Shown here in pieces: positions 22,699 through 54,225 of a DNA stretch of 64,000 nt. The translations under genes were made by a program, and so were the position numbers. The stretch is from an uncultured virus (IMG/VR IMGVR_UViG_3300027833_000038). Lineage: Duplodnaviria > Heunggongvirae > Uroviricota > Caudoviricetes > Crassvirales. The stretch lies in IMG/VR virus record IMGVR_UViG_3300027833_000038; one strand, given 5' to 3'. Below the pieces are notes generated by a model. The model was not told the DNA's origin, did no database searches, and was given only the letters and a program-made list of their open reading frames with translations. Each line of letters starts with the position of its first letter. Within the stretch, counting starts at the first letter, position 1.

Positions 22699-22920
22699 AT
22701 GAATGAAATAAGAAAAATAGCAGTAGGACCCGACTATAAAAATGCAATGCATTACGAAGTCGGGCAAACTGTTATAAAGGGTCATTATAAAATACACTCC
22801 ATTCACGAATCCGAAGGATGTTATATTGTACGAATTGTTAAGGATAGTATCGTTGTTGACTGGAAAAAAGTTAACTTGCAGATGCCTGTGCATGTTGAGT
22901 TCAATATAAATTATGATTAA
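22699..22920 (+). CDS. Hypothetical phage protein
   Basis: Likely start MNEIRKIAVGPDYKNAMHY 2 nt after upstream stop. Confidence 0.65.
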   Translation: MNEIRKIAVGPDYKNAMHYEVGQTVIKGHYKIHSIHESEGCYIVRIVKDSIVVDWKKVNLQMPVHVEFNINYD

Positions 22921-36500: not shown

Positions 36501-37996
36501 AAACCAGTAATGTATTAGGAACTATTGTGCCTTATGCTGGGGATTTTGGTGTTGGAAATAGTCCTGAAAGTATAGTTAAATATGGCAATACAATTTATTT
36601 TGCCGATACAAGTAGAGGTTTTGTTTTTAGACTATCAGCCGATGGTTTAACTCCTATATCTCAGTACGGAATGGCAAACTACTTTAGAACAGAATTAAGT
36701 TCTAGGGGAGAAAACAATGTTTTAGGTGGGTTTGACCCAATGCATAATGAATACTTACTAACTCTTAAGGGACAGATTGATGAAGTTCATCAGCTTACTT
36801 GGGTTGGAGATGAGTACTATTGTGAGCAAACTTACGTTGATGATGTAGTAGAATGGAGAGGAGCGGAAGCTGTTTGTCTTATCTCTTGCAAAGGAGACTG
36901 GAAACCTTCAGAAATTTTAGCAGGTTCTCAGGATTGGAGAATTGATGAGTACTACTGTGAGCAAGAAAGCCAAGTGCCTTCTCCGTCTCCTGTACCGACA
37001 CCTGTTCCAAATCCAACACCTGTGCCAGTTCAATCGCCTACTCCGAGTCCTACGCCAGCACCAGCAGCTACACCAACTGCTCCTGTAGGTCCAGCTCCGA
37101 GCCCTGCGCCAACACCTGCGCCAGGACCAGCGCCAACGCCTAGTCCAAGTCCAAGTCCAACGCCTAGCCCAACACCTAGTCCTGTACCGAGCCCGACACC
37201 TAGTCCAACGCCTTCGCCAACGCCTGCTCCAGGACCAACACCTAGTCCTGTGCCAGCACCCGTGAGTTATGGTACTTGGGATTTAGAGCTTTGTGGTCTT
37301 TTTGGTGGAACAACACCAACAAATGAGAGAATAGCTTATGACAGTGCTTTACAAACAGGAGCTGTAATCAAGGGAAGTGACGGAGAGTGCTACGTTATAA
37401 AAACTCCTAGTCTTTTCTTACCAACAATTACATCAGTAGGAGTCTTTAGTACTTGCTCTACTTGTGCAGCGGCACTTGGTGAAACACCTGCGCCAATATC
37501 TGCACAATCTTTTCTTGTTGTTAGCCAGCAAACTTTTACCAGTCAATACGCAACCTACGACTCTAACTACGCAATTAACGATGAAGTATCATTAAGTGGA
37601 TTTGGAACAAGTGAGTGCTGGACAATAACTGGTTTAAGCAACAATTTCCCTAGTTATAGCATAATTGGAGTATGTGGTGCTTCAAGTCCAACGCCTAGCC
37701 CAACACCTAGTCCTGTGCCAATAGCAGTCACATATACAAACATAGCTTTGTCACAAGTAGGAAATAGCGTCTGGCAATCGTCACCAGCAGCCATAAACTA
37801 CTTTTGCTCTGCTCCTACTTATCTTTCTTTATATAAGCATAACGGAACAGGAGCTTACCCTGCTATTGGAGATGAAATTTTTATGAGAAACGGTGCACCT
37901 CTTCCTTCTTTCTTAGGTCAAAGGAGAGTTCAAGGAGGTCCTATCATATATATTGACAATTCTACAGGCATTGTAACACAAGTAGTAAACTGTTAA
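33578..37996 (+). CDS. Tail hub/stabilisation protein N-terminal part fused to Pro-rich and Cys-rich modules
   Basis: [38 protein letters not shown]; after GGFDP..NEYLLT switches to (PT/PS)n. Confidence 0.75.
36977..37261 (+). repeat. (Pro-X)n tract, X=S/T/A/V
   Basis: [15 protein letters not shown]...PSPVPAP. Confidence 0.95.
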
Positions 37997-38006
37997 AGAA
38001 AAACAA

Positions 38007-40502
38007 ATGGCAAATACAGGAAAGAAAATAGTAACTAGATTAAGACTTTTTAAAGAAGGTCTAGCTACTAGCAAAACAAAGCCAAATGTAGACGGAGACA
38101 AATATTATGTTTCTCCTTTTGACGATGTTGTAGATTGTCCAGAATTTGGAGCACCAACACCTACACCTTCTCCTACACCTGCACCTGCTCCAGCAGCATT
38201 TGCAGTGCCTTCTCCAGCGGTAGCGCCTGTTTTTGTTCCTACGCCCACACCAACGCCTACACCTACGCCTAGCCCTATTCCTACGCCTAGTCCTAGCCCA
38301 ACACCTAGCCCTACGCCTAGTCCTAGCCCTACGCCTAGTCCAACGCCTGCGCCAGCACCGACTCCGAGTCCGTCTCCATCACCAATACCAACGCCTGCAC
38401 CTGCAATAGCACCAGTGCCTGCTCCTATAATGCCAACACCTAGTCCTGTGCCAACGCCTCCAATACCAACGCCTGCACCTGCAATAGCACCAGTGCCTGC
38501 GGTTGTACCAGTAGCGGCGCCAGCGGTAACGGTGTTTAATTGGAAGTTATCAGCAGGTCCACAAGGCGGAAGCGGTTCTTTCCCAGGAAGTTGTGCATAC
38601 ACCTGTACGGATGTTTATACTACAGTAGACACTTGGGCTAATTATCAATTCACAGGAAAATCAGGGACAGTTTTTTACACTGACTCAGCTCTAACTACTA
38701 TATTTAATGGAAACGCTTTATATTATACAGCTCAAGAGCCAGGTCAATGTAACATTGGAACAAGAATAGTAAAACTATCAAGTGATGGAGTCGCTATGGA
38801 ATTATACCAATGTCCTGGACAGCCAACGCCTAACCCTACGCCAGCGCCTATTCCTATCCCTGCTCCTGCAACAGCTCCAGCAATAACTACTTATACTGCT
38901 GATAATCCTTTCTTTGTAGGAGCTCCTCAGTTTGCTATAATGTCTGGAACTAGAAGGCTAAGATGGTTAAGAAATCAAGATGTTGATGCTTTCCCAACAC
39001 TACCTCAATCAGAAGGACCTACTGCTACAGGTACAGCCGTATTTGTTTTAACAGGAGATATAACTTTAAATGCTGACGGTACTGATGTAATTACGGCTGG
39101 AACATATAATGTTGATATACTTGCTGGAGTTAGCGGAGGAGTTTGGAATGTGGTTGAATTGTATTTCTCCGCATCAGACTGGCTGCAAGCTTCTGGAGTA
39201 ACTGGCAACGTGTCTTATGCTAATAGCGGAGCTGTATCTTCTCTTATCATGACCCTTGGAGGGACGCCAGCACCAGTGCCTGCGGTTGCACCTATTCCTA
39301 CGCCAGCACCTATTCCTACGCCAGCACCTAGTCCAGTACCAGTGCCAAGTCCAGTACCAGTGCCTGCTCCTATATCAAGCACAACTACTAGATATAGAGT
39401 AAATTCACATACTGCGTCTAACAGAATCTATAAAGTGTTTGGTCAAAACAATGAAGAATTTTTCTTTGGAGGTAGAAACTTTGATGTAATGTATTCTTAT
39501 GCTCAACCAGAAATTGTTAGAAAACAAAGCACTGATACGGGTACAGTTACATGGCAACAGTATAGTGATTCTAGTCAAAGACTTGGACCTAGTAACGACT
39601 GGACTTCTAACGTATCTCAAATAAAAGGATACCCAACTTTAACAGATTTAGATGCAGACACAAACTCATGGACCTTTACCAACTTTAAACATTGGGGTAT
39701 TAATCCTGGATTCGCTAGTGGACATGGACCTGAGAACTTAGGTGCATTCTGGTCTCGTGGAGATGGAATTCCTTATGCAGATACAGAAACAGCCATAAGA
39801 TTAAGTAAATTAGATGGAATAGCAAATACAAATTATTTGCCAGATGGTTATTATGATGGCACAAGTGGTAATTATGAGTTTGTAGATGGTTATGTATACT
39901 TATTAGTAAGTGGACAAGTTCAATCTGTATTCTTAAGAAGCTCTGTTACAAATGTTGAAGCATGCTTAATAGACAACCAAAGTGTTGACGTTACTATAAC
40001 AGGCTCAGGTCCTCGTTACTGGAATTTCGATGGCAATGCATTAAATGGCATTACTTACGGAATGAAAGAAGGAGCTTCTGTCACATTTAAAGGAGTACCT
40101 ACTGCCCACCCAATAGCTTTCCATACTAAAACATCTGGAGGAACTTCTTTCGCAACTGTTACAGGAACAGTTCTTGAGGGAACTAAAACAGGACTTGATG
40201 GTAATAGCTACAGCTTCTATTCTGGAGACGTTACGTTAGAAATAACATCTAGCTCTATTTGGAACGCATCTAGTGGTCAAACGATAAGCGCAGAGTGTTA
40301 CTACCACGGATACATGGGAGGTCAAGATGCAATAGTATACGAAAACGCTTGTGATTCTTATGACTGGGGAAGTAGCGTGACAACTCCTGCACCTGCTCCT
40401 GCATCACAACCAATTGCTTCGCCTACGCCAAACCCAGCTCCAACACCAATACCGACTGTACCAGTAGCACCTAACCCTGCTCCATACGGCGGAGGGTTTT
40501 AA
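38007..40502 (+). CDS. Extensin/mucin-like protein: MANTG module, Pro-rich linkers, C-terminal cupredoxin-like module
   Basis: Four (PX)n tracts; HPIAF...CYYHGYMGG. Confidence 0.8.
38151..38526 (+). repeat. (Pro-X)n tract with 41-nt exact direct repeat
   Basis: Identical 41-mers at 38382-38422 and 38460-38500. Confidence 0.9.
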
Positions 40503-40540
40503 TATATAATCATGAGATAAAAACACAACGCTAAATTAAT

Positions 40541-40548
40541 TATCTTTG
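40541..40548 (+). promoter_or_regulatory. -7 element TATCTTTG
   Basis: 11 nt upstream of ATG 40560. Confidence 0.6.
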
Positions 40549-40559
40549 TGTAACTTATT

Positions 40560-41366
40560 ATGGCGAATACAGGAAGAAAAGTATATACAACTATACGTCA
40601 ATATTTAAATGGCGTTTATACAGGAGCTGAAGCACTTAATGATGCTTCTGCACCAGAGTACGTTATGCCAGAATATGACTCAGAAGAGTGTCCTTTATCT
40701 CCTCCTCCATCGCCAATACCTAACCCTACGCCAGCGCCTATTCCTAATCCAGCACCTGCGCCAATTTATGTGCCAGTGTTTATACCCACTCCTAATCCGA
40801 CACCTGCGCCAGGTCCTAACCCAGCACCCATACCGAATCCAACACCTGCGCCAGCGGTAAATCCAAACCCTGCACCTGTACCAACGCCTAGTCCTATACC
40901 AAATCCTAGTCCTAGTCCTGTGCCTGCTGTGGAACCTGCACCAACGCCTAGTCCAACGCCTGCGCCAGTGTTTAATCCTACTCCAAGTCCAACACCTAGT
41001 CCAACACCTTCACCTTCGCCTACGCCTAGTCCTACTCCTAGCCCAGCGCCTGTTGTTAGTTGTACTGGTACAAACACGTTCTACCTTAGTTCTGGTCAAA
41101 GGGGTTCTGGCAGTTTCTGCGGTTCATCTTGGTCGGTAACTACTCAGGTAGTATCCACGGTTTCAACAATGGAATTGCTTTTAGGTCAATATGTTTGTAA
41201 AGACGGAGATACCTTTAAGGGAAGAGGGTTTACATATATTGTTAACGAAAGCCCATACTCATATCAAGGTAGCGGATATGCTAGATATGTTAAGATAGAT
41301 GATAATGGATTAGTTACAACTAACTTCTATTCGCAATGTGATGGTAGTGGAGACCAAATTTTATAA
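40560..41366 (+). CDS. Extensin-like protein: MANTG module, (PNPT/PSPT)n, small Cys-containing domain
   Basis: Pro-rich tract 40701-41050. Confidence 0.8.
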
Positions 41367-41371
41367 TTATA

Positions 41372-42043
41372 ATGGCAAACACAGGAAGTAAAATATACAG
41401 AACATTAAGACTCTATAAGGATGGGGTTAGGACTGAACACGTTAAACCTAACGATTCAAGAGACCCTAATCATATTCCTCCTTTTACAGATATTGTGTCT
41501 TGTTTTACAGATGCACCTACACCTACACCTGCGCCTGTACCTACACCTACTCCTGTTCCAGTAGTAGCGCCTAACCCTACACCAGCGCCTATAACACCAA
41601 CACCTACTCCAACACCTGTCCCAGGAGTTATTGTGCTGCCACCAGCGGTAGTAGTTAAGCCTCCAGTATCACCAGCACCAGTTGGAGGAACAGGTATATT
41701 CTTGAGTAGTCCAGACAAAAATTACATTAGACTGTGTCAAAACAATTACATAATGTCTTCTCCTGCATCTATTGCTGGTAACCTTTCAACAGGATTAGAC
41801 AGAATGGTTTCTCAAAATGGACAAGCATTTGACGGAAGAGGACTCTGGTACGCAGCGACTACAGAATCCAATAGACCTACAACTCAAACTGATAATGGTT
41901 GGTACGCTATACAAATTATGCAAGATGGAACTATAGGTAATATTACTTTAGGGAAGTTGGCATGTAGAGGCGGAATGGTGGATGACGATTGGGACACGGA
42001 TGATAATGGCGATGGAGACGAAAGATTCCTTGGATTACTATAA
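41372..42043 (+). CDS. Extensin-like protein: MANTG module, (PT)n, C-terminal domain
   Basis: Pro-rich tract about 41513-41680. Confidence 0.8.
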   Translation: MANTGSKIYRTLRLYKDGVRTEHVKPNDSRDPNHIPPFTDIVSCFTDAPTPTPAPVPTPTPVPVVAPNPTPAPITPTPTPTPVPGVIVLPPAVVVKPPVSPAPVGGTGIFLSSPDKNYIRLCQNNYIMSSPASIAGNLSTGLDRMVSQNGQAFDGRGLWYAATTESNRPTTQTDNGWYAIQIMQDGTIGNITLGKLACRGGMVDDDWDTDDNGDGDERFLGLL

Positions 42044-42055
42044 AATATAAAGAAA

Positions 42056-42202
42056 ATGGCATATACAGGATTGAGATATTATACTAAATTAAGAAGGTTT
42101 GTTAATGGCAAACCTACTAAAACCGTAAAAGAAAACATCATATCTGATAATGACTACATTAAGCCATTTAAAGATGAAAATTCATGCCCTAAAGGAGCGT
42201 AA
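42056..42202 (+). CDS. Stand-alone MANTG-type module (48 aa)
   Basis: Own translation [53 protein letters not shown] coupled. Confidence 0.75.
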
Positions 42203-44790: not shown

Positions 44791-44823
44791 TTGATGATAG
44801 TGATTTGAATGTAAAATTTTAAT

Positions 44824-45333
44824 ATGGGATACTTAAGCAACACAGAAAATATAGTAAATTCAAATGGAAGAAACTGGTCTATTGAAAAGATAGATGGTGA
44901 TATTAAGTTTACATGCTGGAGAGAAGAGGGTGTTCCTAGTAGTTACAAAGATAGCAACTACATAGACTTCATGACTAGAAGCCTCACAAAAACCGAGTAT
45001 CCAAAGGTGCTTATGTCTGGACTAGGAATTGGAGTCGTGCCACAATGGCTTTGCGAAACTAAAAACTCCTCAGTAGATGTAGTAGAAATAGATACAGAGT
45101 TAATTAATTCTGTAAATTCCATGAATTATCTACACGATAATATAAACATTATAAACGCAAGCATCTATAGTTATACTACACAACTAAATTATGACTTAAT
45201 ATACTTTGACCATTGGTTTTTTGTTAATGAAGATAACTTTGGATTTGAAAAAAACGCACTAGTTGATAGGTTTGTTGGTAATAAAAATGAAGAATCTGTT
45301 ATTGTTTTCCCCGTACATAACGAAATTTTTTAA
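44824..45333 (+). CDS. Class I SAM-dependent methyltransferase (spermidine-synthase-like fold)
   Basis: VLMSGLGIG, VDVVEID, YDLIYFD. Confidence 0.75.
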   Translation: MGYLSNTENIVNSNGRNWSIEKIDGDIKFTCWREEGVPSSYKDSNYIDFMTRSLTKTEYPKVLMSGLGIGVVPQWLCETKNSSVDVVEIDTELINSVNSMNYLHDNINIINASIYSYTTQLNYDLIYFDHWFFVNEDNFGFEKNALVDRFVGNKNEESVIVFPVHNEIF

Positions 45334-45370
45334 TAACTTTATGGTAAAATTTTAATTTAAATCAAATACA

Positions 45371-46660
45371 ATGCTTAATGAAATTCCAAACTTCTTATCA
45401 CACCAAGAGTGTGACATGCTTGTTCAGTTAATCGAAAGCAACAATCAACGCTCTCAAGTTGCAGGTGCTGGTGCAGAAAATGCAAAAGTAGAAGACAGTA
45501 GAACTTCCTCTACTTGCAACTTTGGAGAAGACATGTTATTCGGTAATGCCCTTAAAGATAAAGCGGCAAAAGAGCTTAACTTAAACTTCAATAAAGGAGA
45601 GACCCTTCAGGGTCAAAAGTACGAGCCAGGTCAATATTTTAGACCTCACTTAGACTGGTTTCAAGGAGACTCGTTTTACAACCATTGCTTACATTCAGGA
45701 AACAGAACTCATACTCTTATGATTTATCTAAATGATGAATTTGAAGGAGGAGGAACTGATTTTCCAAATTTAGGAATTACTGTAAAACCAGAAAAAGGAA
45801 AAGCCGTTTGGTGGAGAAACCTAGATGATAACATGCAAGGCATACAAGACGTTATGCATGAGGGTCAAGATGTTACATCGGGAACTAAATACATTGTAAC
45901 AAGTTGGTGGAGGGAAAATGAATTTAACGGAGCAGAAAACCAAAGACTAGGTACTGAGCACTGGAAAAATAAAAAAATTTTAGAGTCTGAAATTAAAAAC
46001 GACAGACCAGAAGTTTCAACAGAATCTTTAGATAGCAACATAAAAACTTTTAAAACCGTAGATGAAATTCCTAGATTTACAGAGAATGGATTTATGAAGA
46101 TGAAAGTTCCGCCAGATATTTGGGGACTAATACAAGACTCTTACTTCTTACTACAAGACAAGGAAATTGTCGAAGAGTTTGAGGGGAAGGCTGGAATTAT
46201 TGAGACTAACCAAGAAGGAGCTGCAAGTAGCACAATACTAAGTTTTGAACATATTCCAAACATAAGAACAAAAATACACGAAATGTTGCTGCCTTATCAT
46301 GAAGAATGGGCTAAAACTAGGTTAACTCCTTCATTTGTTTATGGCATACGCTCTTATCAAAGAGGAGCTACATTGGCTTCACACGTAGACAGAATTGCAA
46401 CACACCACATATCAACTATTATTATTGTAGATAAAGACCTAAAATGCGGATGTGTTAATAGAGAATTTGGAGACGACTGGGCTCTTGAAATTAAAGGTCA
46501 CGATGGAGAACAGTATGAAGTTTTTGCAGAGCCAGGAGAAATGATTCTTTATGAATCTGCTGTTTGTGAACACGGAAGAAGTAAACCCTTTCAGGGAACA
46601 AATTTTAAAAACTTTTATACTCATTACCAACTTGTAGACTGGAAATATGACGGAAACTAA
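45371..46660 (+). CDS. Prolyl 4-hydroxylase fused to a second 2OG-Fe(II) oxygenase domain
   Basis: RTSS..YEPGQYFRPHLD..IYLND.FEGGGTDFP..HEG..V.SGTKY; second domain YGIRSY..HVDR..EHGR. Confidence 0.85.
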   Translation: MLNEIPNFLSHQECDMLVQLIESNNQRSQVAGAGAENAKVEDSRTSSTCNFGEDMLFGNALKDKAAKELNLNFNKGETLQGQKYEPGQYFRPHLDWFQGDSFYNHCLHSGNRTHTLMIYLNDEFEGGGTDFPNLGITVKPEKGKAVWWRNLDDNMQGIQDVMHEGQDVTSGTKYIVTSWWRENEFNGAENQRLGTEHWKNKKILESEIKNDRPEVSTESLDSNIKTFKTVDEIPRFTENGFMKMKVPPDIWGLIQDSYFLLQDKEIVEEFEGKAGIIETNQEGAASSTILSFEHIPNIRTKIHEMLLPYHEEWAKTRLTPSFVYGIRSYQRGATLASHVDRIATHHISTIIIVDKDLKCGCVNREFGDDWALEIKGHDGEQYEVFAEPGEMILYESAVCEHGRSKPFQGTNFKNFYTHYQLVDWKYDGN

Positions 46661-49211
46661 ATACATATCATTTGACCCGTGGTGGGGAGGTTTCTCCAAC
46701 ATTAGAATGACGTATGAATTAATAGGAGCACTATCTGTAATTACAGGTAGAAAGATTATTTTGCCTCATAGAATATATTGTTTATTTCTATCAGAGTGGC
46801 AAAATAAAGAGTCATGGTTTGACATGTTTGATGCTTTAGACAAATCTAAGTTTAAAGAGCATTTTGATTGCGTAGAATATTTTGATATACCCGATTATGA
46901 AAATCTTGAAAATGATAAACAATATTTCGAAAACATATCGTCTATTGCGAAAAGTATTACTTTTGGCGACCAAGACACCCACCTAGGTCCTCAGAACGGT
47001 CCAGGAAACGATTATGTACTTCATTGCGGCATAGAAGACCAAGAAGAGTTTGAGGCTTTTAGAGACAACAGAAAGCCCATTGATTTAGATGTAGAAGATA
47101 AGTACATTCATTTCCCTAGAAATCTTTTTGGACATTTTTATTATCACGTGTATGGGAAAACTCCAATACTAAGAAATAAAATAAAAGAAAAAGTTAACAA
47201 AGGAATACAATACAGAAATGAATTTTTTGATGCTTCTCAAGTAATAGCAGACAAATTAGGTCCTTTTAATGCTATACACGTAAGAAGAGGAGACTTCTTG
47301 TCTGTAAGAAAAGATGTTGCTGAGGCTCAGACAGAAAATTTGTTTCAAGATATATCTGAAAGAATACCAAACGACAAACCTTTATTTATAGCGACAGATG
47401 AGCAAGATAAATCTGTGTTCTTGCCCTTAAAGAATCGTTATAATATTTTTTATTTAACGGATTTTCAACACGACACAAGGGACCACGCTGAGTTGCTTAT
47501 TGACCAAATAATATGTGCTAAAGCAGATATATTTTTAGGAAGCTTTTTGTCTACTTTTTCTGATTACTCAAACATAATTAGAGGTCAGGAAGGTAAAGAA
47601 GATTTTCATAGAGAAGGAACAAACTTTAAAAGAGAGCCTCTTGTATACGACAGGTTTCCTTGGGAGGTTGAAGAATACTCTTGGGATAAGACATGGGACT
47701 TTCAATGGAAGTACGAAAAGTCTTTTTTCAATATAGGCGTATATGGCTCTCACAACTCTAGTGTTGCATTATCACACAAGGGGGATGTAGTTGAGGTTGT
47801 AGAGCTTGAAAGATGGGTAGGAAAAAAGAATGCTGCTTTTTATTTTCATTTTCCAGAAAGCAATCCAGACGAACTTTTAGTTGAAATACACGAATACTTT
47901 AAAGACAAGTATGGGGTTTATGTTTATGACAATTGTATGTACAATAGCTGTCTTACTAATATAAATAAAATTCCTGCATTAAACTACGAATGGGTTTCTC
48001 ATCATTTAGCTCATGTAACAAACACCATATACCAATCTCCAGCAACTAAGAGTCTAAATATTTCATTTGATGGCGGTTCTGATGAGGGGCACTTTAATAT
48101 TTACGTTACAGAAAATAGAATACCTACAAAAATATATAGCACAAAACAAGATGTTTGTGTTCCTTACGCATCAGTAGGGCACTACTTGTCTCCAATAAAA
48201 CAAGAAGAGAATTGGTGGTGGGGCAACTTAACTTATGCTGGTAAACTTATGGGACTATCTGCTTATGGCAAGGTAAATCCTGACGACTACAGCAAGATGA
48301 CGGAATATTTTAAACTTCAACAAACAGACGATGTTAATATTGCTCATGAAAACTTTCAAAGAATATTTCAGGTTACGCCTGGAGATAGATTTGATGAAGA
48401 GCGTTCTTATGATATAGCCGCTTGTACACAAAAGGTATTTGAAGATATATTTAGTGAAATAATAACTCCTTATGTTGAGCAGCACAAAGGTTATCAACTT
48501 CAATTTAGTGGTGGAGGAGCCTTAAACGTTATTAATAATGCAAAATGGAATGCATTTGTAAGCCCTAATCCAGACGACAGAGGTTTATCTTTAGGGATGA
48601 TACTTCATAAAATAAAGCCAGGAGGTGTAATTAATTCTAAATTTATTGGACCTGAAATGTGGGATACTTATGAGAATTACCAGCCTTATCCACTAGACGA
48701 TTTAATTTATGATTTAACAACTGAAAAAATAATTGGTCTTTGTCAGGGTCGTTCAGAGTATGGAGCTAGAGCTCTGTGTAACAGAACTTTACTTTGTTCC
48801 CCTAGAAAAGGAATGAAAGACAAGCTGAATAGAGACGTAAAAAAAAGAGAGTCTTTTAGACCCTTTGCTCCTGTGTGCAGAAAAGAAGACGCACACATTT
48901 GGTTTGAACACGGAGAATATACTGACTACATGAGTCACAATGCAACCGTACATAATGTTGTGGATGATATAGCTTCTGTTATACATGAAGACTATACAGC
49001 AAGACTACAAACAGTAACTTCTGAATCTAATCCCTTCATGTACTTACTACTTACTAGAATGAAAGAGCTAGGACACCCTCCTGTACTTATAAACACTTCG
49101 TTTAATTTAATGGGAAAACCAATTTTAAATAGCTGGAAAGAAGCATTTGAGCTAAGGGATGGTGGTGGAATTCACTCTATAACCGATGGAACAAATAGAA
49201 TATTATCATGA
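46647..49211 (+). CDS. O-fucosyltransferase-like domain fused to NodU/CmcH carbamoyltransferase
   Basis: GGFSNIR, AIHVRRGDF, FIATDE, DQIIC..A..FLGS..STFS; HHLAH, GKLMGLSAYG, SGGGALN, RESFRPFAP, INTSFN. Confidence 0.85.
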   Translation: MTETKYISFDPWWGGFSNIRMTYELIGALSVITGRKIILPHRIYCLFLSEWQNKESWFDMFDALDKSKFKEHFDCVEYFDIPDYENLENDKQYFENISSIAKSITFGDQDTHLGPQNGPGNDYVLHCGIEDQEEFEAFRDNRKPIDLDVEDKYIHFPRNLFGHFYYHVYGKTPILRNKIKEKVNKGIQYRNEFFDASQVIADKLGPFNAIHVRRGDFLSVRKDVAEAQTENLFQDISERIPNDKPLFIATDEQDKSVFLPLKNRYNIFYLTDFQHDTRDHAELLIDQIICAKADIFLGSFLSTFSDYSNIIRGQEGKEDFHREGTNFKREPLVYDRFPWEVEEYSWDKTWDFQWKYEKSFFNIGVYGSHNSSVALSHKGDVVEVVELERWVGKKNAAFYFHFPESNPDELLVEIHEYFKDKYGVYVYDNCMYNSCLTNINKIPALNYEWVSHHLAHVTNTIYQSPATKSLNISFDGGSDEGHFNIYVTENRIPTKIYSTKQDVCVPYASVGHYLSPIKQEENWWWGNLTYAGKLMGLSAYGKVNPDDYSKMTEYFKLQQTDDVNIAHENFQRIFQVTPGDRFDEERSYDIAACTQKVFEDIFSEIITPYVEQHKGYQLQFSGGGALNVINNAKWNAFVSPNPDDRGLSLGMILHKIKPGGVINSKFIGPEMWDTYENYQPYPLDDLIYDLTTEKIIGLCQGRSEYGARALCNRTLLCSPRKGMKDKLNRDVKKRESFRPFAPVCRKEDAHIWFEHGEYTDYMSHNATVHNVVDDIASVIHEDYTARLQTVTSESNPFMYLLLTRMKELGHPPVLINTSFNLMGKPILNSWKEAFELRDGGGIHSITDGTNRILS

Positions 49212-50062
49212 AAAGAATATTTATAAGCATATCCTCATATAGGGACCCAGACCTTATTAATACAATAGACGATGCACTAATGAAAGCATCCATTCCCGAA
49301 AGAATTGGCTTTGGAGTTGTTTTTCAGGGAACTAGAAACGAGTTCTTAGAGTTCCTGCCAAAAACTAATAACAAATTAGTATATATAAAACACGTTGAGA
49401 TTGAAGATTCAAAGGGAACAGGATGGGCTAGAAACCTCATAACTAAAACTATGTTAGAGACTGAAGACTATTTTCTTCAAATAGATTCCCACACTAGATT
49501 TAAAAAAAACTGGGATGTTGAACTAATATCTTTTTATGAATCAATCGGAGAAGAGTGTATGGTTTCTGCGTACCCTCCTCACTTTGGAAGAAATGAAACG
49601 TATGAAGTTTACTCAAAAAGAAACTTAAATAATCATGCTATAGTTGTAGGCTTTACAGAAATGTACTCATTTAAAGACACTAAGGGTCGTATTCCAGAAG
49701 AAGACTATGAAGATTCTATAACTGCTGCTGGAGCTTTTCAGTTTTGCTCAAACGAGGTGGCTAAGTCATTGACCTTTGAAGAATACTTTAATCCATGGAT
49801 GGACCAAGAAATTTCTTCTTGCCTTGCATATATGGGTGGTTACAATATATATGCTCCTAAAGATGCTTTTGTTTGGCATTGTTATGCAGATAATCATATA
49901 GGTTCAGACGAAAAATGGAGACCTCTTATTGCTGATGACAGAATTATATCAGATTTTGACAGGTATCCTTTTGAAACAATAAAGACTTGGAAAAGAAATA
50001 GGTCTTTTGAAGATTGGAAAAATAGAGTTCAAGAGGATATTAATTTAATTAAAGATTGGTAA
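49208..50062 (+). CDS. GT60 (Gnt1-like) GlcNAc transferase
   Basis: IFISISSYRDP, SKGTGWAR, FLQIDSHTRF..NWD. Confidence 0.8.
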   Translation: MKRIFISISSYRDPDLINTIDDALMKASIPERIGFGVVFQGTRNEFLEFLPKTNNKLVYIKHVEIEDSKGTGWARNLITKTMLETEDYFLQIDSHTRFKKNWDVELISFYESIGEECMVSAYPPHFGRNETYEVYSKRNLNNHAIVVGFTEMYSFKDTKGRIPEEDYEDSITAAGAFQFCSNEVAKSLTFEEYFNPWMDQEISSCLAYMGGYNIYAPKDAFVWHCYADNHIGSDEKWRPLIADDRIISDFDRYPFETIKTWKRNRSFEDWKNRVQEDINLIKDW

Positions 50063-51042
50063 TGATAAAAACAGCTTTAGTATTAGGAGGAGGAGGATTT
50101 ATAGGTTCTCATTTAGTTAAAAGATTAAAAGAAGAGGGCTACTTTGTTAGGGCAGTAGATTTAAAAAAACCCGAATTTTGGAAAAGTTATGCTGACGAAT
50201 TTATTGTAGGAGACTTAAGAAATCCTCAAATAACTAATTCAGCATTTTCTCATTTAGAGGAAAAAACTTATTTCGATGAAGTTTACCAACTTGCTGCTGA
50301 CATGGGAGGAGCTGGATATTTATTTACAGGAGACAGTGATGCAGATATAATGCACAACTCTGGTTTGATAAATCTAAACGTTCTTCATGCTGCTAATGAA
50401 AAAGGATGCGGAAAGCTTTTTTACGCAAGTAGTGCTTGTGTATATCCTGAGTACAATCAAATAGACCCCGAAAGCCCCAAGTGTACAGAAGACAGTGTTT
50501 ATCCAGCAGAACCAGATTCTGAGTATGGATGGGAGAAACTGTTTAGTGAAAGAATGTACATGGCTTTTGCAAGAAACAAAGAAATAAACGTAAGAATAGC
50601 TAGATTTCACGGCATATTTGGTCCTTACGGAACTTGGAATGACGGAAAAGAAAAAGCTCCTGCTGCAATATGCAGAAAAGTTGCAGAATCAAAAGACAGT
50701 ATTGAAATCTGGGGAGACGGAGAACAGACTCGTTCTTTTATGTATATAGATGATGCTGTAGAAACAATTAGAAGATTTATGATGAACGATGACTTTCAAG
50801 GTCCAATGAACATAGGCTCTGAAGAGATGGTTACTATCAATCAATATGCGGACATGGTAATGTCTGTAGCTGATAAATATTTAGATATAGTTCATATAGA
50901 AGGACCCCAAGGAGTTAGAGGAAGAAACTCAGATAACACCTTAATGGAAGAGAAACTTGGATGGACTCCAGACGGTTCTTTAATAGACGGAATACATAAA
51001 ACTTATCAGTGGATTGAGAAGCAAGTGCAAAAAACGTCCTAA
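50056..51042 (+). CDS. GDP-mannose 3,5-epimerase-like NAD-dependent epimerase
   Basis: GGGGFIG, LAADMGG, SSACVYP, YGWEK, EKAPAAICRK, GVRGRNSDN. Confidence 0.85.
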   Translation: MVMIKTALVLGGGGFIGSHLVKRLKEEGYFVRAVDLKKPEFWKSYADEFIVGDLRNPQITNSAFSHLEEKTYFDEVYQLAADMGGAGYLFTGDSDADIMHNSGLINLNVLHAANEKGCGKLFYASSACVYPEYNQIDPESPKCTEDSVYPAEPDSEYGWEKLFSERMYMAFARNKEINVRIARFHGIFGPYGTWNDGKEKAPAAICRKVAESKDSIEIWGDGEQTRSFMYIDDAVETIRRFMMNDDFQGPMNIGSEEMVTINQYADMVMSVADKYLDIVHIEGPQGVRGRNSDNTLMEEKLGWTPDGSLIDGIHKTYQWIEKQVQKTS

Positions 51043-51060
51043 ATAATATTGTAAATTTGC
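51027..51060 (+). promoter_or_regulatory. Promoter (TAAATTTG 51052-51059), near-leaderless
   Basis: TAnnTTTG 4 nt before ATG; upstream GCAAAAAACGT. Confidence 0.6.
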
Positions 51061-51063
51061 TGT

Positions 51064-51804
51064 ATGGCACAAAATAGCAATGAAACATTAGGGTTCAGTG
51101 AACTAAATAAAGGCTGGACATCATTTTATTCTTTTATTCCTGAAGAAATGGTTAATATTAAATCAGACTTCTTTACATTTAAGAACGGTAATGTGTACAA
51201 ACACAACATAAAAGGCGCCAGCAGAAACACTTTTTATGGGCAAGTGTACCCTAGCATAATCGAAACTTTAATAAATCAAGACCCAGAAACCGTAAAAAAC
51301 TTTAGAACACTCAACTTAGAGGGTTCTTCTGGATTTTGGAGGGTAGAAATGACTACTGATTTAGATAAGGGTGGAGCAACTCACGCAGATTTTGAGGAAA
51401 GAGAAAGGTTATTTAAAGCTCACATAAGAACAGATAGAGACGATTCTTTAAATACAGACAGACTTACAGTTCAAGGATTAGGTACTTTAATATCTAGACA
51501 GGATACTAGTTTGTTTTTTAGGTTTATAGATAATGCTATTGAACAAGGGGATTTAGTTTACCAAATATATGCAGATAAATACGAGTTTCTTGGAGAGATA
51601 AAATCGGTTTTTGATAACTACATTTTACTTGATGGAATAAGAAAAGACGTGAAGCTAGGTCAATTTTGCTTTGTTAGCAAAGACCCTGTTATTGAAAGTT
51701 ATGGATTAAAAGGATATTTTAGTAGTGTTGTATTAACTAGCTATGAGTCTACAGATATGGAGTTGTTTGCTGTTAGTACGGAAGTAACCCAAAGTAGTAT
51801 TTAA
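51064..51804 (+). CDS. Probable C-terminal part of tail hub/stabilisation protein
   Basis: TLGFSE..KGWTSFYSFIPE, NTFYG, KNFRTLNLEG, GLKGYF. Confidence 0.65.
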   Translation: MAQNSNETLGFSELNKGWTSFYSFIPEEMVNIKSDFFTFKNGNVYKHNIKGASRNTFYGQVYPSIIETLINQDPETVKNFRTLNLEGSSGFWRVEMTTDLDKGGATHADFEERERLFKAHIRTDRDDSLNTDRLTVQGLGTLISRQDTSLFFRFIDNAIEQGDLVYQIYADKYEFLGEIKSVFDNYILLDGIRKDVKLGQFCFVSKDPVIESYGLKGYFSSVVLTSYESTDMELFAVSTEVTQSSI

Positions 51805-52790: not shown

Positions 52791-52799
52791 ACAATAATT

Positions 52800-54224: not shown

Positions 54225-54225
54225 T

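What the first reader, a model, noticed from the sequence alone, without database searches (positions are those of the whole stretch)
36965..51042. Candidate phage-encoded hydroxyproline O-glycosylation system for extensin-like virion appendages
Seen: five proteins with long (Pro-Ser/Thr/Ala/Val/Asn)n tracts are followed on the same strand by a methyltransferase, a prolyl 4-hydroxylase, an O-FucT/carbamoyltransferase fusion, a GT60 transferase and a GDP-mannose epimerase; the last four genes overlap. Known: P4H then GT60 Gnt1 is the Dictyostelium/Toxoplasma Skp1 Hyp-GlcNAc pathway; (SP)n/(AP)n tracts are P4H substrates in algal and plant hydroxyproline-rich glycoproteins; chloroviruses encode a P4H. 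Inference: substrates and the full modifying pathway are co-encoded. Pro becomes Hyp, then GlcNAc, then Fuc/L-Gal, with carbamoyl/methyl caps, giving a glycan bottle-brush on the tail. This could mimic algal glycans that a Flavobacteriia host binds, aid particle adhesion, or shield against proteases. I know of no such system described in a bacteriophage.
Basis: partly seen in the sequence, partly recalled or inferred. Interest (0 to 1): 0.95.

Follow-up and report, generated by a model that had tools for sequence, protein, structure and literature searches.

The report
Phage proline-tract proteins with hydroxylase-glycosyltransferase cassette
A marine phage carries, inside its tail-tip gene, five proteins with long proline-alternating stretches next to enzymes that probably hydroxylate and sugar-coat them, a modification not yet shown for any bacterial virus.

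Summary
Five co-directional ORFs (36977-44790) hold about 849 residues of uncharged (Pro-Thr/Ala/Ser/Val)n tracts. They are followed by a small methyltransferase-like gene, a two-domain 2OG oxygenase (collagen/algal-type P4H plus a second active-looking oxygenase domain), an O-FucT-like/carbamoyltransferase fusion, a GT60 transferase and a GDP-mannose 3,5-epimerase.

New here:
- The roughly 14.3-kb module is inserted at a fixed site inside the crAss-type muzzle (tail-tip) gene. The first tract protein is the muzzle's own C-terminal extension.
- The enzyme set recurs in many uncultured viral contigs on unrelated backbones, with swapped domain fusions (FucT-CT or FucT-GT60).
- Neutral Pro-tract genes accompany the enzymes in 8-9 of 12 oxygenase-containing clusters, against 2 of 19 clusters with a lone GT60.
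- Two Bacteroidota genome bins place the same oxygenase beside T9SS-secreted PT-repeat proteins.

I put about 0.6 on the enzymes tailoring these tract proteins. Hydroxyproline linkage and Thr/Ser linkage are about equally likely. No chemistry is shown.

"Extensin-like" is imprecise, since there are no SPPPP motifs. The P4H is not of the Skp1 PhyA type.

Seven literature searches aimed at phage or virus protein modification found no description in a bacteriophage. This scan has noted similar cassettes on other DNA (eight unchecked notes).

The parts
33578..36772 (+). Muzzle protein, N-terminal part (residues 1-1065), equivalent to residues 2-1076 of the single 1324-aa muzzle protein gp097 of Cellulophaga phage phi38:1
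   Evidence: Pfam crAss_MUZ 5.4e-11; phrog_14478 3.4e-270; BLASTP 40% over 1092 aa
36773..37996 (+). C-terminal extension of the muzzle N-part (residues 1066-1472): EWRG..YCEQ mini-modules, a 95-residue (PX)n tract (36977-37261), two Cys-containing globular modules and a short second tract
   Evidence: No counterpart in phi38:1 gp097; tract map; its modules are shared with L016/L017/L004 Pro-rich ORFs
38007..40502 (+). PR2, 831 aa: shared 44-aa N-terminal module, four (PX)n tracts (128, 22, 35 and 33 residues), and globular modules including a 338-aa one
   Evidence: residues 694-778 are 39% identical to a module that sits N-terminal to MUZ_C in L019; no Pfam family for the modules
40560..41366 (+). 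PR3, 268 aa: N-terminal module, a 120-residue tract and a 104-aa C-terminal Cys module
41372..42043 (+). PR4, 223 aa: N-terminal module, a 55-residue tract and a 120-aa C-terminal module
   Evidence: C-module 45% identical to an L008 ORF
42202..44790 (+). PR5, 862 aa: divergent N-terminal module, six tracts (53-102 residues) alternating with about 65-125-aa Cys modules, several of which end in C-x-x-C
   Evidence: only 83% identical to L003 with tract indels, while the flanking enzymes are 98-99% identical
44824..45333 (+). Small class-I methyltransferase-like protein (169 aa). The assignment is weak and the gene is an accessory member of the cassette
   Evidence: RrnaAD 3e-3; phrog_15480 methyltransferase 1e-4; ksgA 4.5e-4; present in L003/4/7/8, with no match in L015-L018
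45371..46660 (+). Two-domain 2OG/Fe(II) oxygenase. The N-domain (residues 1-187) is a collagen/algal-type prolyl 4-hydroxylase. The C-domain (residues 234-429) is a PhyH-like DSBH with its own HxD...H triad
   Evidence: PDB sequence hits: B. anthracis P4H 4e-23, PBCV-1 4.3e-16. Invariant H93, D95, H163, K173 and H338, D340 (90%), H401 in 29 sequences. AF2 pLDDT 91.4. VIA: CrP4H-1 Z 22.3, vCPH 21.0, human C-P4H-II 20.1; C-domain HalB 14.7, AviO1 12.9. Foldseek top hit 3gze, CrP4H-1 with (Ser-Pro)5
46647..49211 (+). Fusion of an O-FucT-superfamily glycosyltransferase (residues 6-307; IHVRRGDF and STFS motifs) with a NodU/TobZ-type O-carbamoyltransferase (residues about 366-838)
   Evidence: PF10250 6.3e-14, PF02543 5.3e-14, PF16861 8.2e-49; PDB carbamoyltransferases 1.4e-34 and below, POFUT2 2e-7; NodU 1.1e-32, below cutoff; invariant H211, R213, R214, S302, T303, S305
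49208..50062 (+). GT60-family (PF11397) GT-A glycosyltransferase, 284 aa, with an invariant D93-S94-H95
   Evidence: PF11397 3.8e-31, 109 bits against a cutoff of 21; invariants; AF2 pLDDT 88.7; VIA: mGalNAc-T1 Z 19.9, TgGalNAc-T3 18.4, SpsA 17.0; Foldseek: COLGALT1 first, 4.8e-10
50056..51042 (+). GDP-mannose 3,5-epimerase (would make GDP-L-galactose or GDP-L-gulose)
   Evidence: PDB 2c59 1.1e-92, against 5.5e-27 for the next SDR family; SSAC, YxxxK and EKAPAA segments conserved in the alignment
51064..51804 (+). Muzzle protein, C-terminal part (246 aa), equivalent to residues 1079-1321 of phi38:1 gp097
   Evidence: PF25729 crAss_MUZ_C 2.8e-10; BLASTP 7e-23; the downstream genes 51814-59700 are syntenic with gp098-gp101

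Best explanation
The window is an uncultured marine podophage related to the Cellulophaga, Maribacter and Tenacibaculum phages. Its crAss-type muzzle (tail-tip) gene is split at a fixed site. A module of about 14.3 kb (about 36773-51084) sits in the gap.

The module encodes two things. The first is a set of five modular proteins built from uncharged (Pro-Thr/Ser/Ala/Val)n rods and small Cys-containing globular modules. One of the five is the muzzle's own extension, and four share a 44-aa N-terminal module. The second is a signal-less, hence cytoplasmic, tailoring pathway.

Proposed order of events, all inferred:
1. The N-domain of the oxygenase hydroxylates tract prolines to 4-Hyp.
2. The GT60 enzyme starts an O-glycan with a HexNAc on Hyp.
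3. The fucosyltransferase-superfamily domain extends the glycan with L-galactose, made from host GDP-mannose by the phage epimerase, or with L-fucose.
4. The carbamoyltransferase fused to that domain caps a sugar hydroxyl. The small methyltransferase may add a methyl group.
5. The second oxygenase domain acts on a second residue or on the sugar.

The result would be stiff, protease-resistant, AGP- or mucin-like glycoprotein rods that hold variable binding modules out from the tail tip.

What is shown: gene content, family and fold assignments, conserved catalytic residues, the insertion inside the muzzle gene, and co-occurrence across viruses.

Likelihoods: about 0.6 that these enzymes tailor these tract proteins at all, and 0.35 for the full chain with a hydroxyproline linkage.
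For: Enzyme identities
- The P4H N-domain has sequence hits to solved P4Hs.
- It has an invariant HxD...H+K signature in 29 homologues.
- Its best folds are CrP4H-1 (Z 22.3, rmsd 1.7 over 169 residues), PBCV-1 vCPH (21.0) and human C-P4H-II (20.1). The Foldseek top hit is CrP4H-1 bound to (Ser-Pro)5.
- GT60 scores 109 bits on PF11397. It is a GT-A fold with an invariant DSH, and its nearest solved folds are protein O-glycosyltransferases.
- GME scores 1e-92, with catalytic segments conserved.
- The FucT and CT domains are confirmed.

Physical link to the virion
- phi38:1 gp097 residues 2-1076 match the N-part and residues 1079-1321 match ORF 51064-51804.
- The first tract protein is therefore a muzzle extension.
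- The same split site carries cassettes in L016 and L019. In L019 the C-part also bears tracts.

Co-occurrence
- The 80 viral loci with GT60 relatives fall into 31 clusters.
- The two-domain oxygenase abuts the FucT-containing ORF in 11 of 12 oxygenase-positive clusters.
- Neutral Pro-tract ORFs occur in 8 of 12 such clusters, against 2 of 19 lone-GT60 clusters (Fisher p = 0.002, definition chosen post hoc).
- With the first, a-priori definition the counts are 7 of 12 against 4 of 19 (p = 0.056).
- L034 adds a ninth cluster through a truncated homologue. L010 shows the same protein after a FucT_CT.

Independence from backbone
- The tract gene travels with the enzymes on unrelated backbones: next to RNR/DnaB in L050, next to a sheath gene in L029, next to PolB in L020.
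- The fusions swap between FucT-CT and FucT-GT60.

Cellular parallels
- Two Bacteroidota bins place the oxygenase directly after RR-signal/T9SS PT-repeat proteins, alongside fucose-pathway genes, a GT10 and sulfotransferases.
- A Woeseiaceae bin places it before a PMT protein O-mannosyltransferase.

Variation and expression
- Tract genes are hypervariable (83% identity with indels), while the flanking enzymes are 98-99% identical.
- Indel variants in the DNA runs lie only in the tract region.
- RNA-library contigs cover 28 of 30 and 27 of 30 bins of the module.
Against: - No chemistry is shown: no hydroxylation or glycosylation was or could be observed here.
- Three of 12 oxygenase-positive clusters (L022, the L023 group, L030) show no tract ORF or homologue in the DNA held, and there the cassette lies among replication genes. 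Those contigs are only 13-20% complete.
- The stronger co-occurrence statistic uses a definition chosen after seeing the sequences. The a-priori one gives p = 0.056.
- The nearest solved folds of the GT60 model act on Ser/Thr (GT27) or hydroxylysine. GT60 includes a Thr-directed enzyme (passage). Every tract is rich in Thr/Ser, so a Hyp linkage is not favoured by sequence.
- P4H-fold enzymes also hydroxylate non-repeat targets such as EF-Tu (4iw3, Z 18.2).
- None of the 23 cellular two-domain oxygenase loci has a GT60 or FucT neighbour, and only 2 have an examined, adjacent tract gene.
- For the chlorovirus precedent, a reference-list entry in PMC7019647 records that no hydroxyproline was detected in purified PBCV-1 particles.
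- The RNA-library contigs may be DNA carry-over, and they give no strand.
Confidence: 0.35

Rival explanations
1. The substrates and enzymes are the same, but the glycan is mucin-type. GT60 and/or the POFUT-like domain glycosylate Thr/Ser of the tracts, or Ser/Thr within the Cys modules. The P4H acts separately, for example to stiffen the polyproline-II rods, or on another target.
For: - The best structural neighbours of the GT60 model are mucin-type polypeptide GalNAc-transferases (Z 19.9 and 18.4).
- GT60 contains the T. cruzi Thr-directed polypeptide alpha-GlcNAc-transferase (passage).
- The tracts hold 197 Ser/Thr in 849 residues.
- Tracts in relatives are (APTT)n, (AAPTT)n and (APTV)n.
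- PF10250 and POFUT2 similarity, together with the Cys modules that end in C-[ST]-x-C, recall POFUT acceptors.
Against: - The oxygenase is the constant partner and directly abuts the GT gene in 11 of 12 clusters.
- Lone GT60 genes without the oxygenase are not accompanied by neutral tracts: 2 of 19, one of which is an antisense shadow.
- In aligned homologous tracts Pro is kept at 532 of 553 positions, while Ser/Thr is kept as Ser/Thr only 62-85% of the time. This argument is weak, because period-2 repeats self-align.
Confidence: 0.27
2. The tracts are ordinary unmodified flexible linkers of hypervariable tail-tip proteins. The enzyme cassette is an auxiliary island that landed in the same hot spot and modifies something else: other phage proteins, host envelope glycoproteins such as T9SS PT-repeat proteins, or host surface polysaccharide.
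For: - PT linkers are common and need no dedicated enzymes (general knowledge, recalled).
- The cassette sits among replication genes, with no tract ORF in view, in L022 and L023.
- Cultured Synechococcus phage S-SCSM1 has a looser island of 2OG oxygenases, an O-FucT, a CT, epimerases and GTs with no neutral tract gene next to it.
- Bacteroidota hosts have their own PT-repeat T9SS proteins next to this oxygenase, so host proteins are conceivable targets.
Against: - The tract genes move with the enzymes onto four unrelated backbones, including replication modules. A shared structural hot spot does not explain that.
- The enrichment is 8-9 of 12 against 2 of 19.
- All three transferase or oxygenase families have characterised members that act on polypeptides.
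- The enzymes have no signal peptides or membrane segments visible in their N-termini (read by eye, not tested with a predictor).
Confidence: 0.22
3. The cassette hypermodifies phage DNA: an oxygenase, glycosyltransferases, a carbamoyl- and a methyltransferase acting on a base, as in TET/JBP-type systems.
For: - The cassette is frequently placed next to RNR, DnaB, ThyX, polymerases and GTP cyclohydrolase I.
- Phage GTs are known to build diverse glycans on DNA (citation seen in a passage).
Against: - The oxygenase N-domain matches P4Hs at Z 19.6-22.3, against Z 11.9 for NgTET1 and 12-15 for AlkB-type enzymes.
- GT60 and PF10250 have no known DNA-directed members (recalled).
- In this window the cassette lies inside a structural gene, flanked by tract proteins.
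- A GDP-L-galactose donor is atypical for DNA glycosylation (recalled).
Confidence: 0.04

Closest known systems
Skp1 prolyl-hydroxylation/glycosylation pathway of Dictyostelium and Toxoplasma (PhyA P4H, Gnt1 = CAZy GT60, PgtA and others)
   Same: The pathway is cytoplasmic. A 2OG prolyl 4-hydroxylase is followed by a GT60 enzyme that puts alpha-GlcNAc on Hyp, and a fucose-type sugar is added later (passage of PMC6939170). The GT60 family assignment is met here.
   Different: The P4H here is of the collagen/algal type (Z 22.3), not the PhyA/PHD type (Z 15.3), and it carries a second oxygenase domain. The candidate substrate is hundreds of prolines in repeats, not one Pro of Skp1. Extension would be by a PF10250 domain, not a GT2/GT74 PgtA. 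The Skp1 pathway has no carbamoyltransferase or GME counterpart.
Chlorovirus PBCV-1 prolyl 4-hydroxylase (vCPH, PDB 5c5t) and that virus's Pro-rich repeat ORFs (Eriksson et al. 1999; seen only as a reference-list entry, content recalled)
   Same: It is a virus-encoded collagen-type P4H (Z 21.0 to this model), with (PX)n-type candidate substrates encoded by the same genome.
   Different: The host is eukaryotic. There is no adjacent GT60, FucT, CT or GME set. The same reference list notes that no Hyp was detected in purified particles.
Plant and green-algal hydroxyproline-rich glycoproteins (arabinogalactan-protein type)
   Same: They have non-contiguous AP/SP/TP/VP motifs. The P4H belongs to the same structural subgroup: CrP4H-1 crystallised with (Ser-Pro)5 is the top Foldseek hit.
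   Different: Those proteins are made in the secretory pathway and use GT31/GT95 Hyp-glycosyltransferases (recalled). The extensin SPPPP motif is absent here (PP 0-2 per tract).
Mycobacteriophage virion glycosylation (Freeman et al. 2023; seen only as cited in a passage of PMC12619734; the paper itself was not held)
   Same: Phage-encoded glycosyltransferases decorate the phage's own virion proteins.
   Different: There the capsid and tail-tube C-termini are modified, and no hydroxylase is described in the passage seen. Other details were not seen.
Mimivirus collagen-like proteins with the bifunctional lysyl hydroxylase/glycosyltransferase L230 (recalled; the related PDB 6ax6 appears at Z 13.8)
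   Same: The virus encodes both a repetitive substrate and a hydroxylase plus glycosyltransferase that tailor it.
   Different: The chemistry is lysine/hydroxylysine on Gly-X-Y collagen repeats, and it is a giant virus of amoebae. Two related loci here (L029, L023) do carry a PLOD-type GT domain.
Mucin-type O-glycosylation (GT27 polypeptide GalNAc-transferases) and T. cruzi GT60 Thr-GlcNAc
   Same: GT27 enzymes are the nearest solved folds to the GT60 model (Z 19.9 and 18.4). Their acceptors are Thr/Pro-rich repeats.
   Different: There is no lectin domain. No sequence-level PDB match was found. A hydroxylase is tightly coupled here.

Membership tests
Collagen/algal-type prolyl 4-hydroxylase (2OG-Fe(II) oxygenase, PF13640) | HxD...H iron triad and a 2OG-binding Lys | tested here: met
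   H93, D95, H163 and K173 are invariant in 29 homologues and align to the triad of B. anthracis P4H
Collagen/algal-type prolyl 4-hydroxylase (2OG-Fe(II) oxygenase, PF13640) | DSBH fold closest to bona fide peptidyl-prolyl 4-hydroxylases | tested here: met
   2jij Z 22.3 (rmsd 1.7 over 169), 5c5t 21.0, 7zsc 20.1, 6tp5 19.7, 5iax 19.6. Other oxygenases score 15.4 or less, apart from PHD types at 17.8-18.2
Collagen/algal-type prolyl 4-hydroxylase (2OG-Fe(II) oxygenase, PF13640) | Hydroxylates peptidyl proline at C4 | not testable with these tools
   Needs an enzyme assay or mass spectrometry
CAZy GT60 / Pfam PF11397 (GlcNAc) | Sequence match above Pfam's gathering score | tested here: met
   109.3 bits against a cutoff of 21, E 3.8e-31
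CAZy GT60 / Pfam PF11397 (GlcNAc) | GT-A fold with a DxD/DxH metal motif | tested here: met
   D93-S94-H95 is invariant in 17 sequences. The model (pLDDT 88.7) aligns to GT-A enzymes, best GT27 at Z 19.9
CAZy GT60 / Pfam PF11397 (GlcNAc) | Transfers alpha-GlcNAc from UDP-GlcNAc to Hyp or Thr of a polypeptide | not testable with these tools
   Donor and acceptor cannot be read from the sequence
Skp1 hydroxyproline-glycosylation pathway | PhyA/PHD-type prolyl hydroxylase | tested here: not met
   D. discoideum PhyA (6t8m) scores Z 15.3, against 19.6-22.3 for collagen/algal P4Hs
Skp1 hydroxyproline-glycosylation pathway | Skp1 as acceptor; PgtA (GT2/GT74) as second enzyme | tested here: not met
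   No GT2/GT74 or Skp1-like ORF lies between 36965 and 51804. The ORFs there have the Pfam families listed
Extensin-type HRGP | Contiguous Ser-Pro3-5 motifs | tested here: not met
   PP dipeptides number 0-2 per tract, and the tracts are alternating P-x
GDP-mannose 3,5-epimerase | Close full-length similarity to characterised GME, separate from other SDRs, with catalytic residues kept | tested here: met
   2c59 E 1.1e-92 over residues 9-326, next family 5.5e-27. SSAC, YxxxK and EKAPAA are conserved (residue roles recalled)
NodU/CmcH/TobZ O-carbamoyltransferase | Carbam_trans_N plus Carbam_trans_C domains | tested here: met
   PF02543 5.3e-14 and PF16861 8.2e-49. PDB 7xb6 1.4e-34, TobZ 6.8e-24. 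The NodU equivalog score is far below its cutoff, so this is family membership only
Fucosyltransferase superfamily, PF10250 (O-FucT) | Pfam match above cutoff and the conserved HxRRxD / STFS motifs | tested here: met
   52.7 bits against 31.5. H211, R213, R214, S302, T303 and S305 are invariant in 13 sequences (motif meaning recalled). Whether it acts on protein or extends a glycan is open
Crassvirus muzzle protein (PF25731 / PF25729) | N-terminal and C-terminal muzzle domains, normally in one polypeptide | tested here: met
   PF25731 5.4e-11 in ORF 33578 and PF25729 2.8e-10 in ORF 51064. Both halves align to the single gp097 of phi38:1. Here they are split into two genes

The most novel reading that the evidence does not exclude
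A mobile, virus-borne, cytoplasmic hydroxyproline O-glycosylation system is widespread in marine and freshwater phages. It turns co-encoded (Pro-Thr/Ser/Ala)n rods into AGP-like glycoprotein fibres on the tail tip, with a glycan chemistry not described anywhere: HexNAc-Hyp extended by L-galactose and capped by carbamoyl. It has a cellular counterpart acting on T9SS-secreted PT-repeat proteins of Bacteroidota. That would be the first Hyp-linked protein glycosylation in bacteria or their viruses. It would also assign a function to the many unexplained phage 'prolyl 4-hydroxylase / 2OG oxygenase' and 'Nol-like carbamoyltransferase' genes.
Probability: 0.3. Interest if true: 0.92.

Novelty: new variant of a known kind. 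Interest (0 to 1): 0.8.

Why it matters
Phage genomes are full of unexplained prolyl-hydroxylase-like 2OG oxygenases and Nol-like carbamoyltransferases. Here they come with a concrete, testable substrate encoded next door.

The two-domain oxygenase alone has 340 clusters at 90% identity in the large protein collection. GT60 relatives occur on 289 viral stretches.

If the tracts are hydroxylated and glycosylated, several things would follow:
- Hyp- or mucin-type protein glycosylation would extend to bacterial viruses, and probably to Bacteroidota secreted proteins.
- It would show how phages build long, protease-resistant spacers for hypervariable tail-tip modules.
- It would provide a compact cytoplasmic enzyme set for making AGP- or mucin-like glycoproteins in bacteria.

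The fixed insertion site inside the muzzle gene also marks a natural display position on a crAss-type tail.

Tried and rejected
- Complex prediction. I folded muzzle N-part residues 800-1133, MUZ_C and the shared 48-aa PR N-terminal module together (collected). The verdict was 'no answer' (score 0.07, mark 0.32). It says nothing either way, so docking of PR2-PR5 on the muzzle remains inference.
- Function of the globular modules. Pfam at E up to 1 on 13 segments gave nothing credible. The two atlas searches gave only unnamed viral clusters.
- GT60 against solved structures by sequence or profile gave nothing significant (best E 0.35).
- The N-terminal 296 aa of the L050 FucT-GT60 fusion has no PDB match.
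- NCBIfam added no names beyond a sub-threshold NodU match.
- Terminator and promoter scans were at shuffle level: 12 found against 12.9 expected, and 59 against 52. The scan does not cover Bacteroidota promoters.
- Tandem-repeat analysis found only imperfect repeats with 70-100% matches, most between 70 and 88%.
- No whole genome is held for the window.
- Cultured phages: none has the full cassette. S-SCSM1 has only basic (PR/PQ)n tracts and one short PT tract elsewhere in its genome. The contigs behind L026, L022 and L020 had no strict alternating-Pro match, but they are 13-20% complete.
- Pro versus Ser/Thr conservation in aligned tracts is not decisive, because period-2 repeats align in phase by construction.
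- Tree of 47 oxygenases. I dropped 5 of the 23 cellular rows (L106, L109, L115, L117, L122) without checking them. Only the quick search finished. The viral/metagenomic rows separate from the cellular rows on one branch (SH-aLRT 100). The fork placing the Bacteroidota pair nearest the viral clade has support of only 64, so no origin is claimed.
- One alignment call failed on my wrong coordinates and was replaced by a script.

Full report
OBSERVATION

The window is a phage genome fragment. It encodes terminase, portal, GroEL/ES-like proteins, an endolysin and many virion proteins. Its muzzle protein is 36-40% identical to those of cultured phages of Cellulophaga, Maribacter, Tenacibaculum and Flavobacterium, so a marine Flavobacteriia host is a reasonable inference.

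The five Pro-rich proteins together hold 849 tract residues: P 385, T 108, A 99, S 89, V 77, I 29, N 28. The tracts are almost free of charge and almost strictly alternating, with 0-2 PP dipeptides per tract. An eight-fold alternating CCN pattern matches 112 times, always on the + strand between 36977 and 44168, against 0.00 expected from 100 shuffles. At DNA level the tracts are imperfect repeats, most with 70-88% matches. The pattern is therefore maintained at protein level and is not a recent slippage product.

ENZYMES

Oxygenase (ORF 45371-46660)
- It is a two-domain 2OG oxygenase.
- Residues 5-185 hit solved prolyl 4-hydroxylases by sequence: B. anthracis 4e-23, PBCV-1 4.3e-16, human C-P4H alpha-2 1e-14, Chlamydomonas 4e-12.
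- In a 29-sequence alignment, H93, D95, H163 and K173 are invariant in the N-domain. H338 and H401 are invariant in the C-domain, and D340 is kept in 90% of sequences.
- The AlphaFold model is confident, with mean pLDDT 91.4.
- The N-domain's best structural matches are CrP4H-1 (Z 22.3, rmsd 1.7 A over 169 residues), PBCV-1 vCPH (21.0), human C-P4H-II (20.1), P4H-TM (19.7) and BaP4H (19.6). These score above the PHD types (18.2 and 17.8; Dictyostelium PhyA 15.3) and far above NgTET1 (11.9).
- The Foldseek top hit is CrP4H-1 crystallised with a (Ser-Pro)5 substrate.
- The C-domain (residues 234-429) is a separate PhyH-like DSBH. Its nearest folds are small-molecule or sugar oxygenases (HalB 14.7, AviO1 12.9, SnoK 12.9, EvdMO1 12.8). 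Its substrate is open.

FucT_CT fusion (ORF 46647-49211)
- It fuses a PF10250 fucosyltransferase-superfamily domain to a NodU/TobZ-type O-carbamoyltransferase.
- HxRRxD and STFS motifs are invariant in 13 sequences.

GT60 (ORF 49208-50062)
- It is a PF11397/GT60 protein scoring 109 bits against a cutoff of 21.
- It has an invariant D-S-H motif.
- Its model (pLDDT 88.7) is a GT-A fold. By VIA it is nearest to mucin-type polypeptide GalNAc-transferases (Z 19.9 and 18.4), with generic GT2 enzymes at 17.0 or below. By Foldseek it is nearest to collagen hydroxylysine galactosyltransferase.

Epimerase and methyltransferase
- ORF 50056-51042 is a GDP-mannose 3,5-epimerase: E 1e-92 to the Arabidopsis enzyme, against 5.5e-27 for the next SDR family, with catalytic segments conserved.
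- The methyltransferase assignment of ORF 44824-45333 is weak.

None of these proteins shows an N-terminal signal or membrane segment by eye. I ran no predictor.

In Cellulophaga phage phi38:1 the muzzle protein gp097 is one 1324-aa polypeptide, followed by gp098-gp101. In the window, gp097 residues 2-1076 align to residues 1-1065 of ORF 33578-37996. Residues 1079-1321 align to residues 8-244 of ORF 51064-51804. The downstream genes are syntenic.

The roughly 14.3 kb between nucleotides 36773 and 51084 is therefore an insertion at one point of a tail-tip structural gene. The first 'Pro-rich protein' is the 407-residue C-terminal extension of the muzzle N-part.

The same split point is used in two further lineages:
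- L016/L017, at 60% GT60 identity, have the same gene order but no methyltransferase match.
- L019/L028 lack FucT, CT and GME and have a radical-SAM/SPASM gene in their place. There the C-part also carries tracts, in a 608-aa protein with crAss_MUZ_C at residues 391-461.

Maribacter phage Panino splits the gene elsewhere (between gp097 residues 951 and 996) and has no cassette.

PR2-PR5 share a 44-residue N-terminal module (8 invariant columns). It recurs at 43-82% identity in paralogues of L016-L018, including a stand-alone 60-aa ORF. A PR2 module (residues 694-778) also occurs N-terminal to MUZ_C in L019. That these four proteins dock on the muzzle is an inference, and the one complex prediction gave no answer.

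DISTRIBUTION AND CO-OCCURRENCE

No cultured phage has the full cassette.

In IMG/VR, a GT60 profile found 289 stretches, of which the best 80 loci were kept. I annotated all 80 with a script and dereplicated them at 80% GT60 identity into 31 clusters.

Gene arrangement
- Twelve clusters have the two-domain oxygenase.
- In 11 of those 12 it directly abuts, or overlaps, the ORF that contains the FucT domain (coordinates).
- In the window-type clusters and in L010, FucT is fused to CT.
- In eight other clusters (L020, L021, L022, the L023 group, L029, L030, the L032 group, L034 and L042/43, counting L021, which lacks a visible oxygenase at its contig start) FucT is fused to GT60, and CT is a separate gene.
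- Such swapped fusions argue that these activities belong to one pathway.

Tract genes
- With my first definition of a Pro tract, 7 of 12 oxygenase clusters and 4 of 19 lone-GT60 clusters had a tract ORF (p = 0.056).
- Reading the sequences showed that the four in the control group are charged EP/KP tracts of a different kind. It also showed that L020 has a 257-residue (AAPTT)n protein that the threshold had missed.
- With a composition-aware definition, chosen post hoc, the counts are 8 of 12 and 2 of 19 (p = 0.002).
- One of the two controls is the antisense shadow of a collagen-like ORF in L021. The other is a 120-aa low-complexity ORF.
- L034 ends 61 residues into a homologue of the L050-type tract protein. 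L010, from a separate cluster found through the oxygenase, has that protein's N-domain directly after its FucT_CT.
- Three clusters (L022, the L023 group, L030) show neither a tract ORF nor a homologue in the DNA held.

Backbones
- The tract gene travels with the enzymes on unrelated backbones.
- In L050, L032, L038 and L071 it lies after RNR/DnaB.
- In L029 it lies beside a tail-sheath gene, in a cassette that also has DUF5672 and a PLOD-type GT domain.
- In L020 it lies beside PolB.

CELLULAR COUNTERPARTS

An oxygenase profile found 557 stretches in species-representative genomes. Of the 80 loci kept, 23 match both domains at 29-40% identity.

- None of the 23 has a GT60 or FucT neighbour.
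- In the two Bacteroidota bins (L103, L104; short contigs) the ORF directly upstream has a twin-arginine-like signal, an (SPTA)n or (APTV)n tract, and a T9SS C-terminal sorting domain (PF18962, 6e-12 and 2.7e-11). Its neighbours are two sulfotransferases and a GT10 fucosyltransferase in L103, and a GME (3e-129 to the window's) and a GMD-like gene in L104.
- In a Woeseiaceae bin the oxygenase is followed by a PMT-family protein O-mannosyltransferase and a GT2/GtrA gene.
- Four other cellular loci had ORFs that met the tract definition, but I did not examine them.
- In a quick tree, the viral/metagenomic oxygenases separate from the cellular ones on one branch (SH-aLRT 100). The fork placing the Bacteroidota pair next to the viral clade is weak, at 64.

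POPULATION AND EXPRESSION HINTS

Near-identical DNA is held by 20 runs from 9 studies of marine metagenomes. Two of those rows may be the source of the window.

Laid contigs of two DNA runs show indel variants only in the tract and methyltransferase region: skips of 396 and 300 bases, and one 189-letter replacement. A 4147-base contig over the enzymes differs at only 13 places. Likewise, PR5 is 83% identical to L003 with tract indels, while the flanking enzymes are 98-99% identical.

Contigs from two RNA-library runs of one sample cover 28 and 27 of 30 bins of the module, tract genes and enzymes alike. DNA carry-over cannot be excluded, and contigs give no strand.

INTERPRETATION

The most economical reading is that the phage tailors its own tract proteins in the cytoplasm before assembly.
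- The oxygenase N-domain hydroxylates tract prolines. Collagen/algal-type P4Hs act on exactly such repeats.
- GT60 starts an O-glycan.
- The fucosyltransferase-like domain extends it, plausibly with L-galactose, which is the 6-hydroxy analogue of L-fucose and the product of the co-encoded epimerase.
- The fused carbamoyltransferase caps a sugar hydroxyl.

None of these steps is shown.

I put about 0.6 on 'these enzymes modify these proteins'. I split that roughly evenly between a Hyp linkage and a Thr/Ser linkage. The Hyp linkage is favoured by the invariable, abutting oxygenase and by the absence of neutral tracts beside lone GT60 genes. The Thr/Ser linkage is favoured by the GT27-like fold, by the Thr-directed GT60 precedent and by the Thr/Ser-rich tracts.

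'Other target' keeps about 0.22, because a quarter of the clusters show no tract gene and the cassette often sits among replication genes. DNA modification is unlikely given the P4H fold.

Function is inference from architecture and from recalled knowledge of glycosylated PT linkers: long, stiff, protease-resistant spacers that display hypervariable modules at the tail tip.

COMPARISON AND NOVELTY

The system works like the Skp1 PhyA/Gnt1 pathway (P4H then GT60, cytoplasmic). It fails that pathway's membership test on P4H type, acceptor and second enzyme.

It resembles PBCV-1 (viral P4H plus Pro-rich ORFs), mimivirus collagen tailoring, plant AGPs (motif type, P4H subgroup) and mycobacteriophage virion glycosylation. 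No single one of these combines all its parts.

Seven full-text searches aimed at phage or virus protein modification found no description of such a system in a bacteriophage. An eighth search retrieved the Skp1/GT60 background. The held library lacks most subscription papers.

A cautionary precedent is a reference-list entry in the Chloroviruses review, which records that no hydroxyproline was detected in purified PBCV-1 particles.

This scan's own notebook lists eight earlier, unchecked notes of similar P4H/GT60/Pro-rich sets in other phage and bacterial DNA. I did not test them. They indicate recurrence, not proof.

I rate this a new variant of a known kind (virus-encoded tailoring of its own structural proteins) and of high interest because it is widespread and directly testable.

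Noticed in passing
window 33578-37996 and 51064-51804; L016, L019, L002: The muzzle gene is split at the same residue (phi38:1 gp097 about 1077/1078) in three cassette-bearing lineages. Maribacter phage Panino splits it elsewhere (951|996) with no cassette. The site looks like a permissive display or insertion point of the crAss-type tail tip.
   Followed up: yes
window 9269-9886: A second, separate 2OG-Fe(II) oxygenase (phrog_81 1e-26; TIGR02466-like 8e-8) lies far from the cassette. Its role is unknown.
   Followed up: partly
window 6606-8201 and 22913-23458: The phage encodes a GroEL-like chaperonin (phrog_5725 3e-131) and a GroES-like co-chaperonin (phrog_13932 7e-14).
   Followed up: no
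window 3813-5564 (- strand): A 583-aa protein matches an anti-restriction family (phrog_7245 3.7e-59).
   Followed up: no
L019 9097-9999 (also L028): In this muzzle-inserted variant a radical-SAM/SPASM enzyme sits between the oxygenase and GT60. The adjacent tract proteins are very Cys-rich (26 and 16 Cys). This hints at additional peptide cross-linking of the modules.
   Followed up: no
L029 14539-15243; L023 13915-14628 and 15634-16713: Divergent cassettes add a PLOD-type (collagen lysyl-hydroxylase) GT domain and DUF5672. L023 also has a UDP-galactopyranose mutase. The glycans built probably differ between phages.
   Followed up: partly
L103 328-1512 and L104 1370-2401: These are cellular Bacteroidota proteins with an RR-type signal, an (SPTA)n or (APTV)n tract and a T9SS sorting domain. 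They lie directly upstream of a two-domain oxygenase homologue, with sulfotransferases, a GT10 FucT and GME/GMD nearby. This may be a cellular version of the system.
   Followed up: partly
L110 9710-13697: In a Woeseiaceae bin the two-domain oxygenase is followed by a PMT-family protein O-mannosyltransferase and a GT2/GtrA gene.
   Followed up: partly
window PR5 residues 183-186 and 636-639; L008, L016, L019, L004, L042 Pro-rich ORFs: Many Cys modules end in C-x-x-C immediately before a tract: 19 motifs, 12 directly before a tract, and 13 with Ser/Thr inside. They could be a structural disulfide or metal site, or an acceptor motif.
   Followed up: partly
L021 8740-9588: A collagen-like (G-P-T/S)n ORF lies 5 kb downstream of a FucT-GT60 fusion whose upstream region is cut by the contig end.
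   Followed up: no
L091/W01 (Synechococcus phage S-SCSM1) 102203-115362 and 28463-28788: This cultured cyanophage has a looser island of several 2OG oxygenases, an O-FucT, a carbamoyltransferase, MPI, three epimerases and four GTs next to RNR. It also has a basic (PR/PQ)n tract of about 110 residues elsewhere in the genome.
   Followed up: partly
L092 (Xanthomonas phage XacN1) ORF333-334 and ORF325: A GT60-like GT and a carbamoyltransferase are adjacent in jumbo phages of Xanthomonas and Stenotrophomonas. A 3313-aa ORF about 7 kb away contains a short [13 protein letters not shown] stretch.
   Followed up: no
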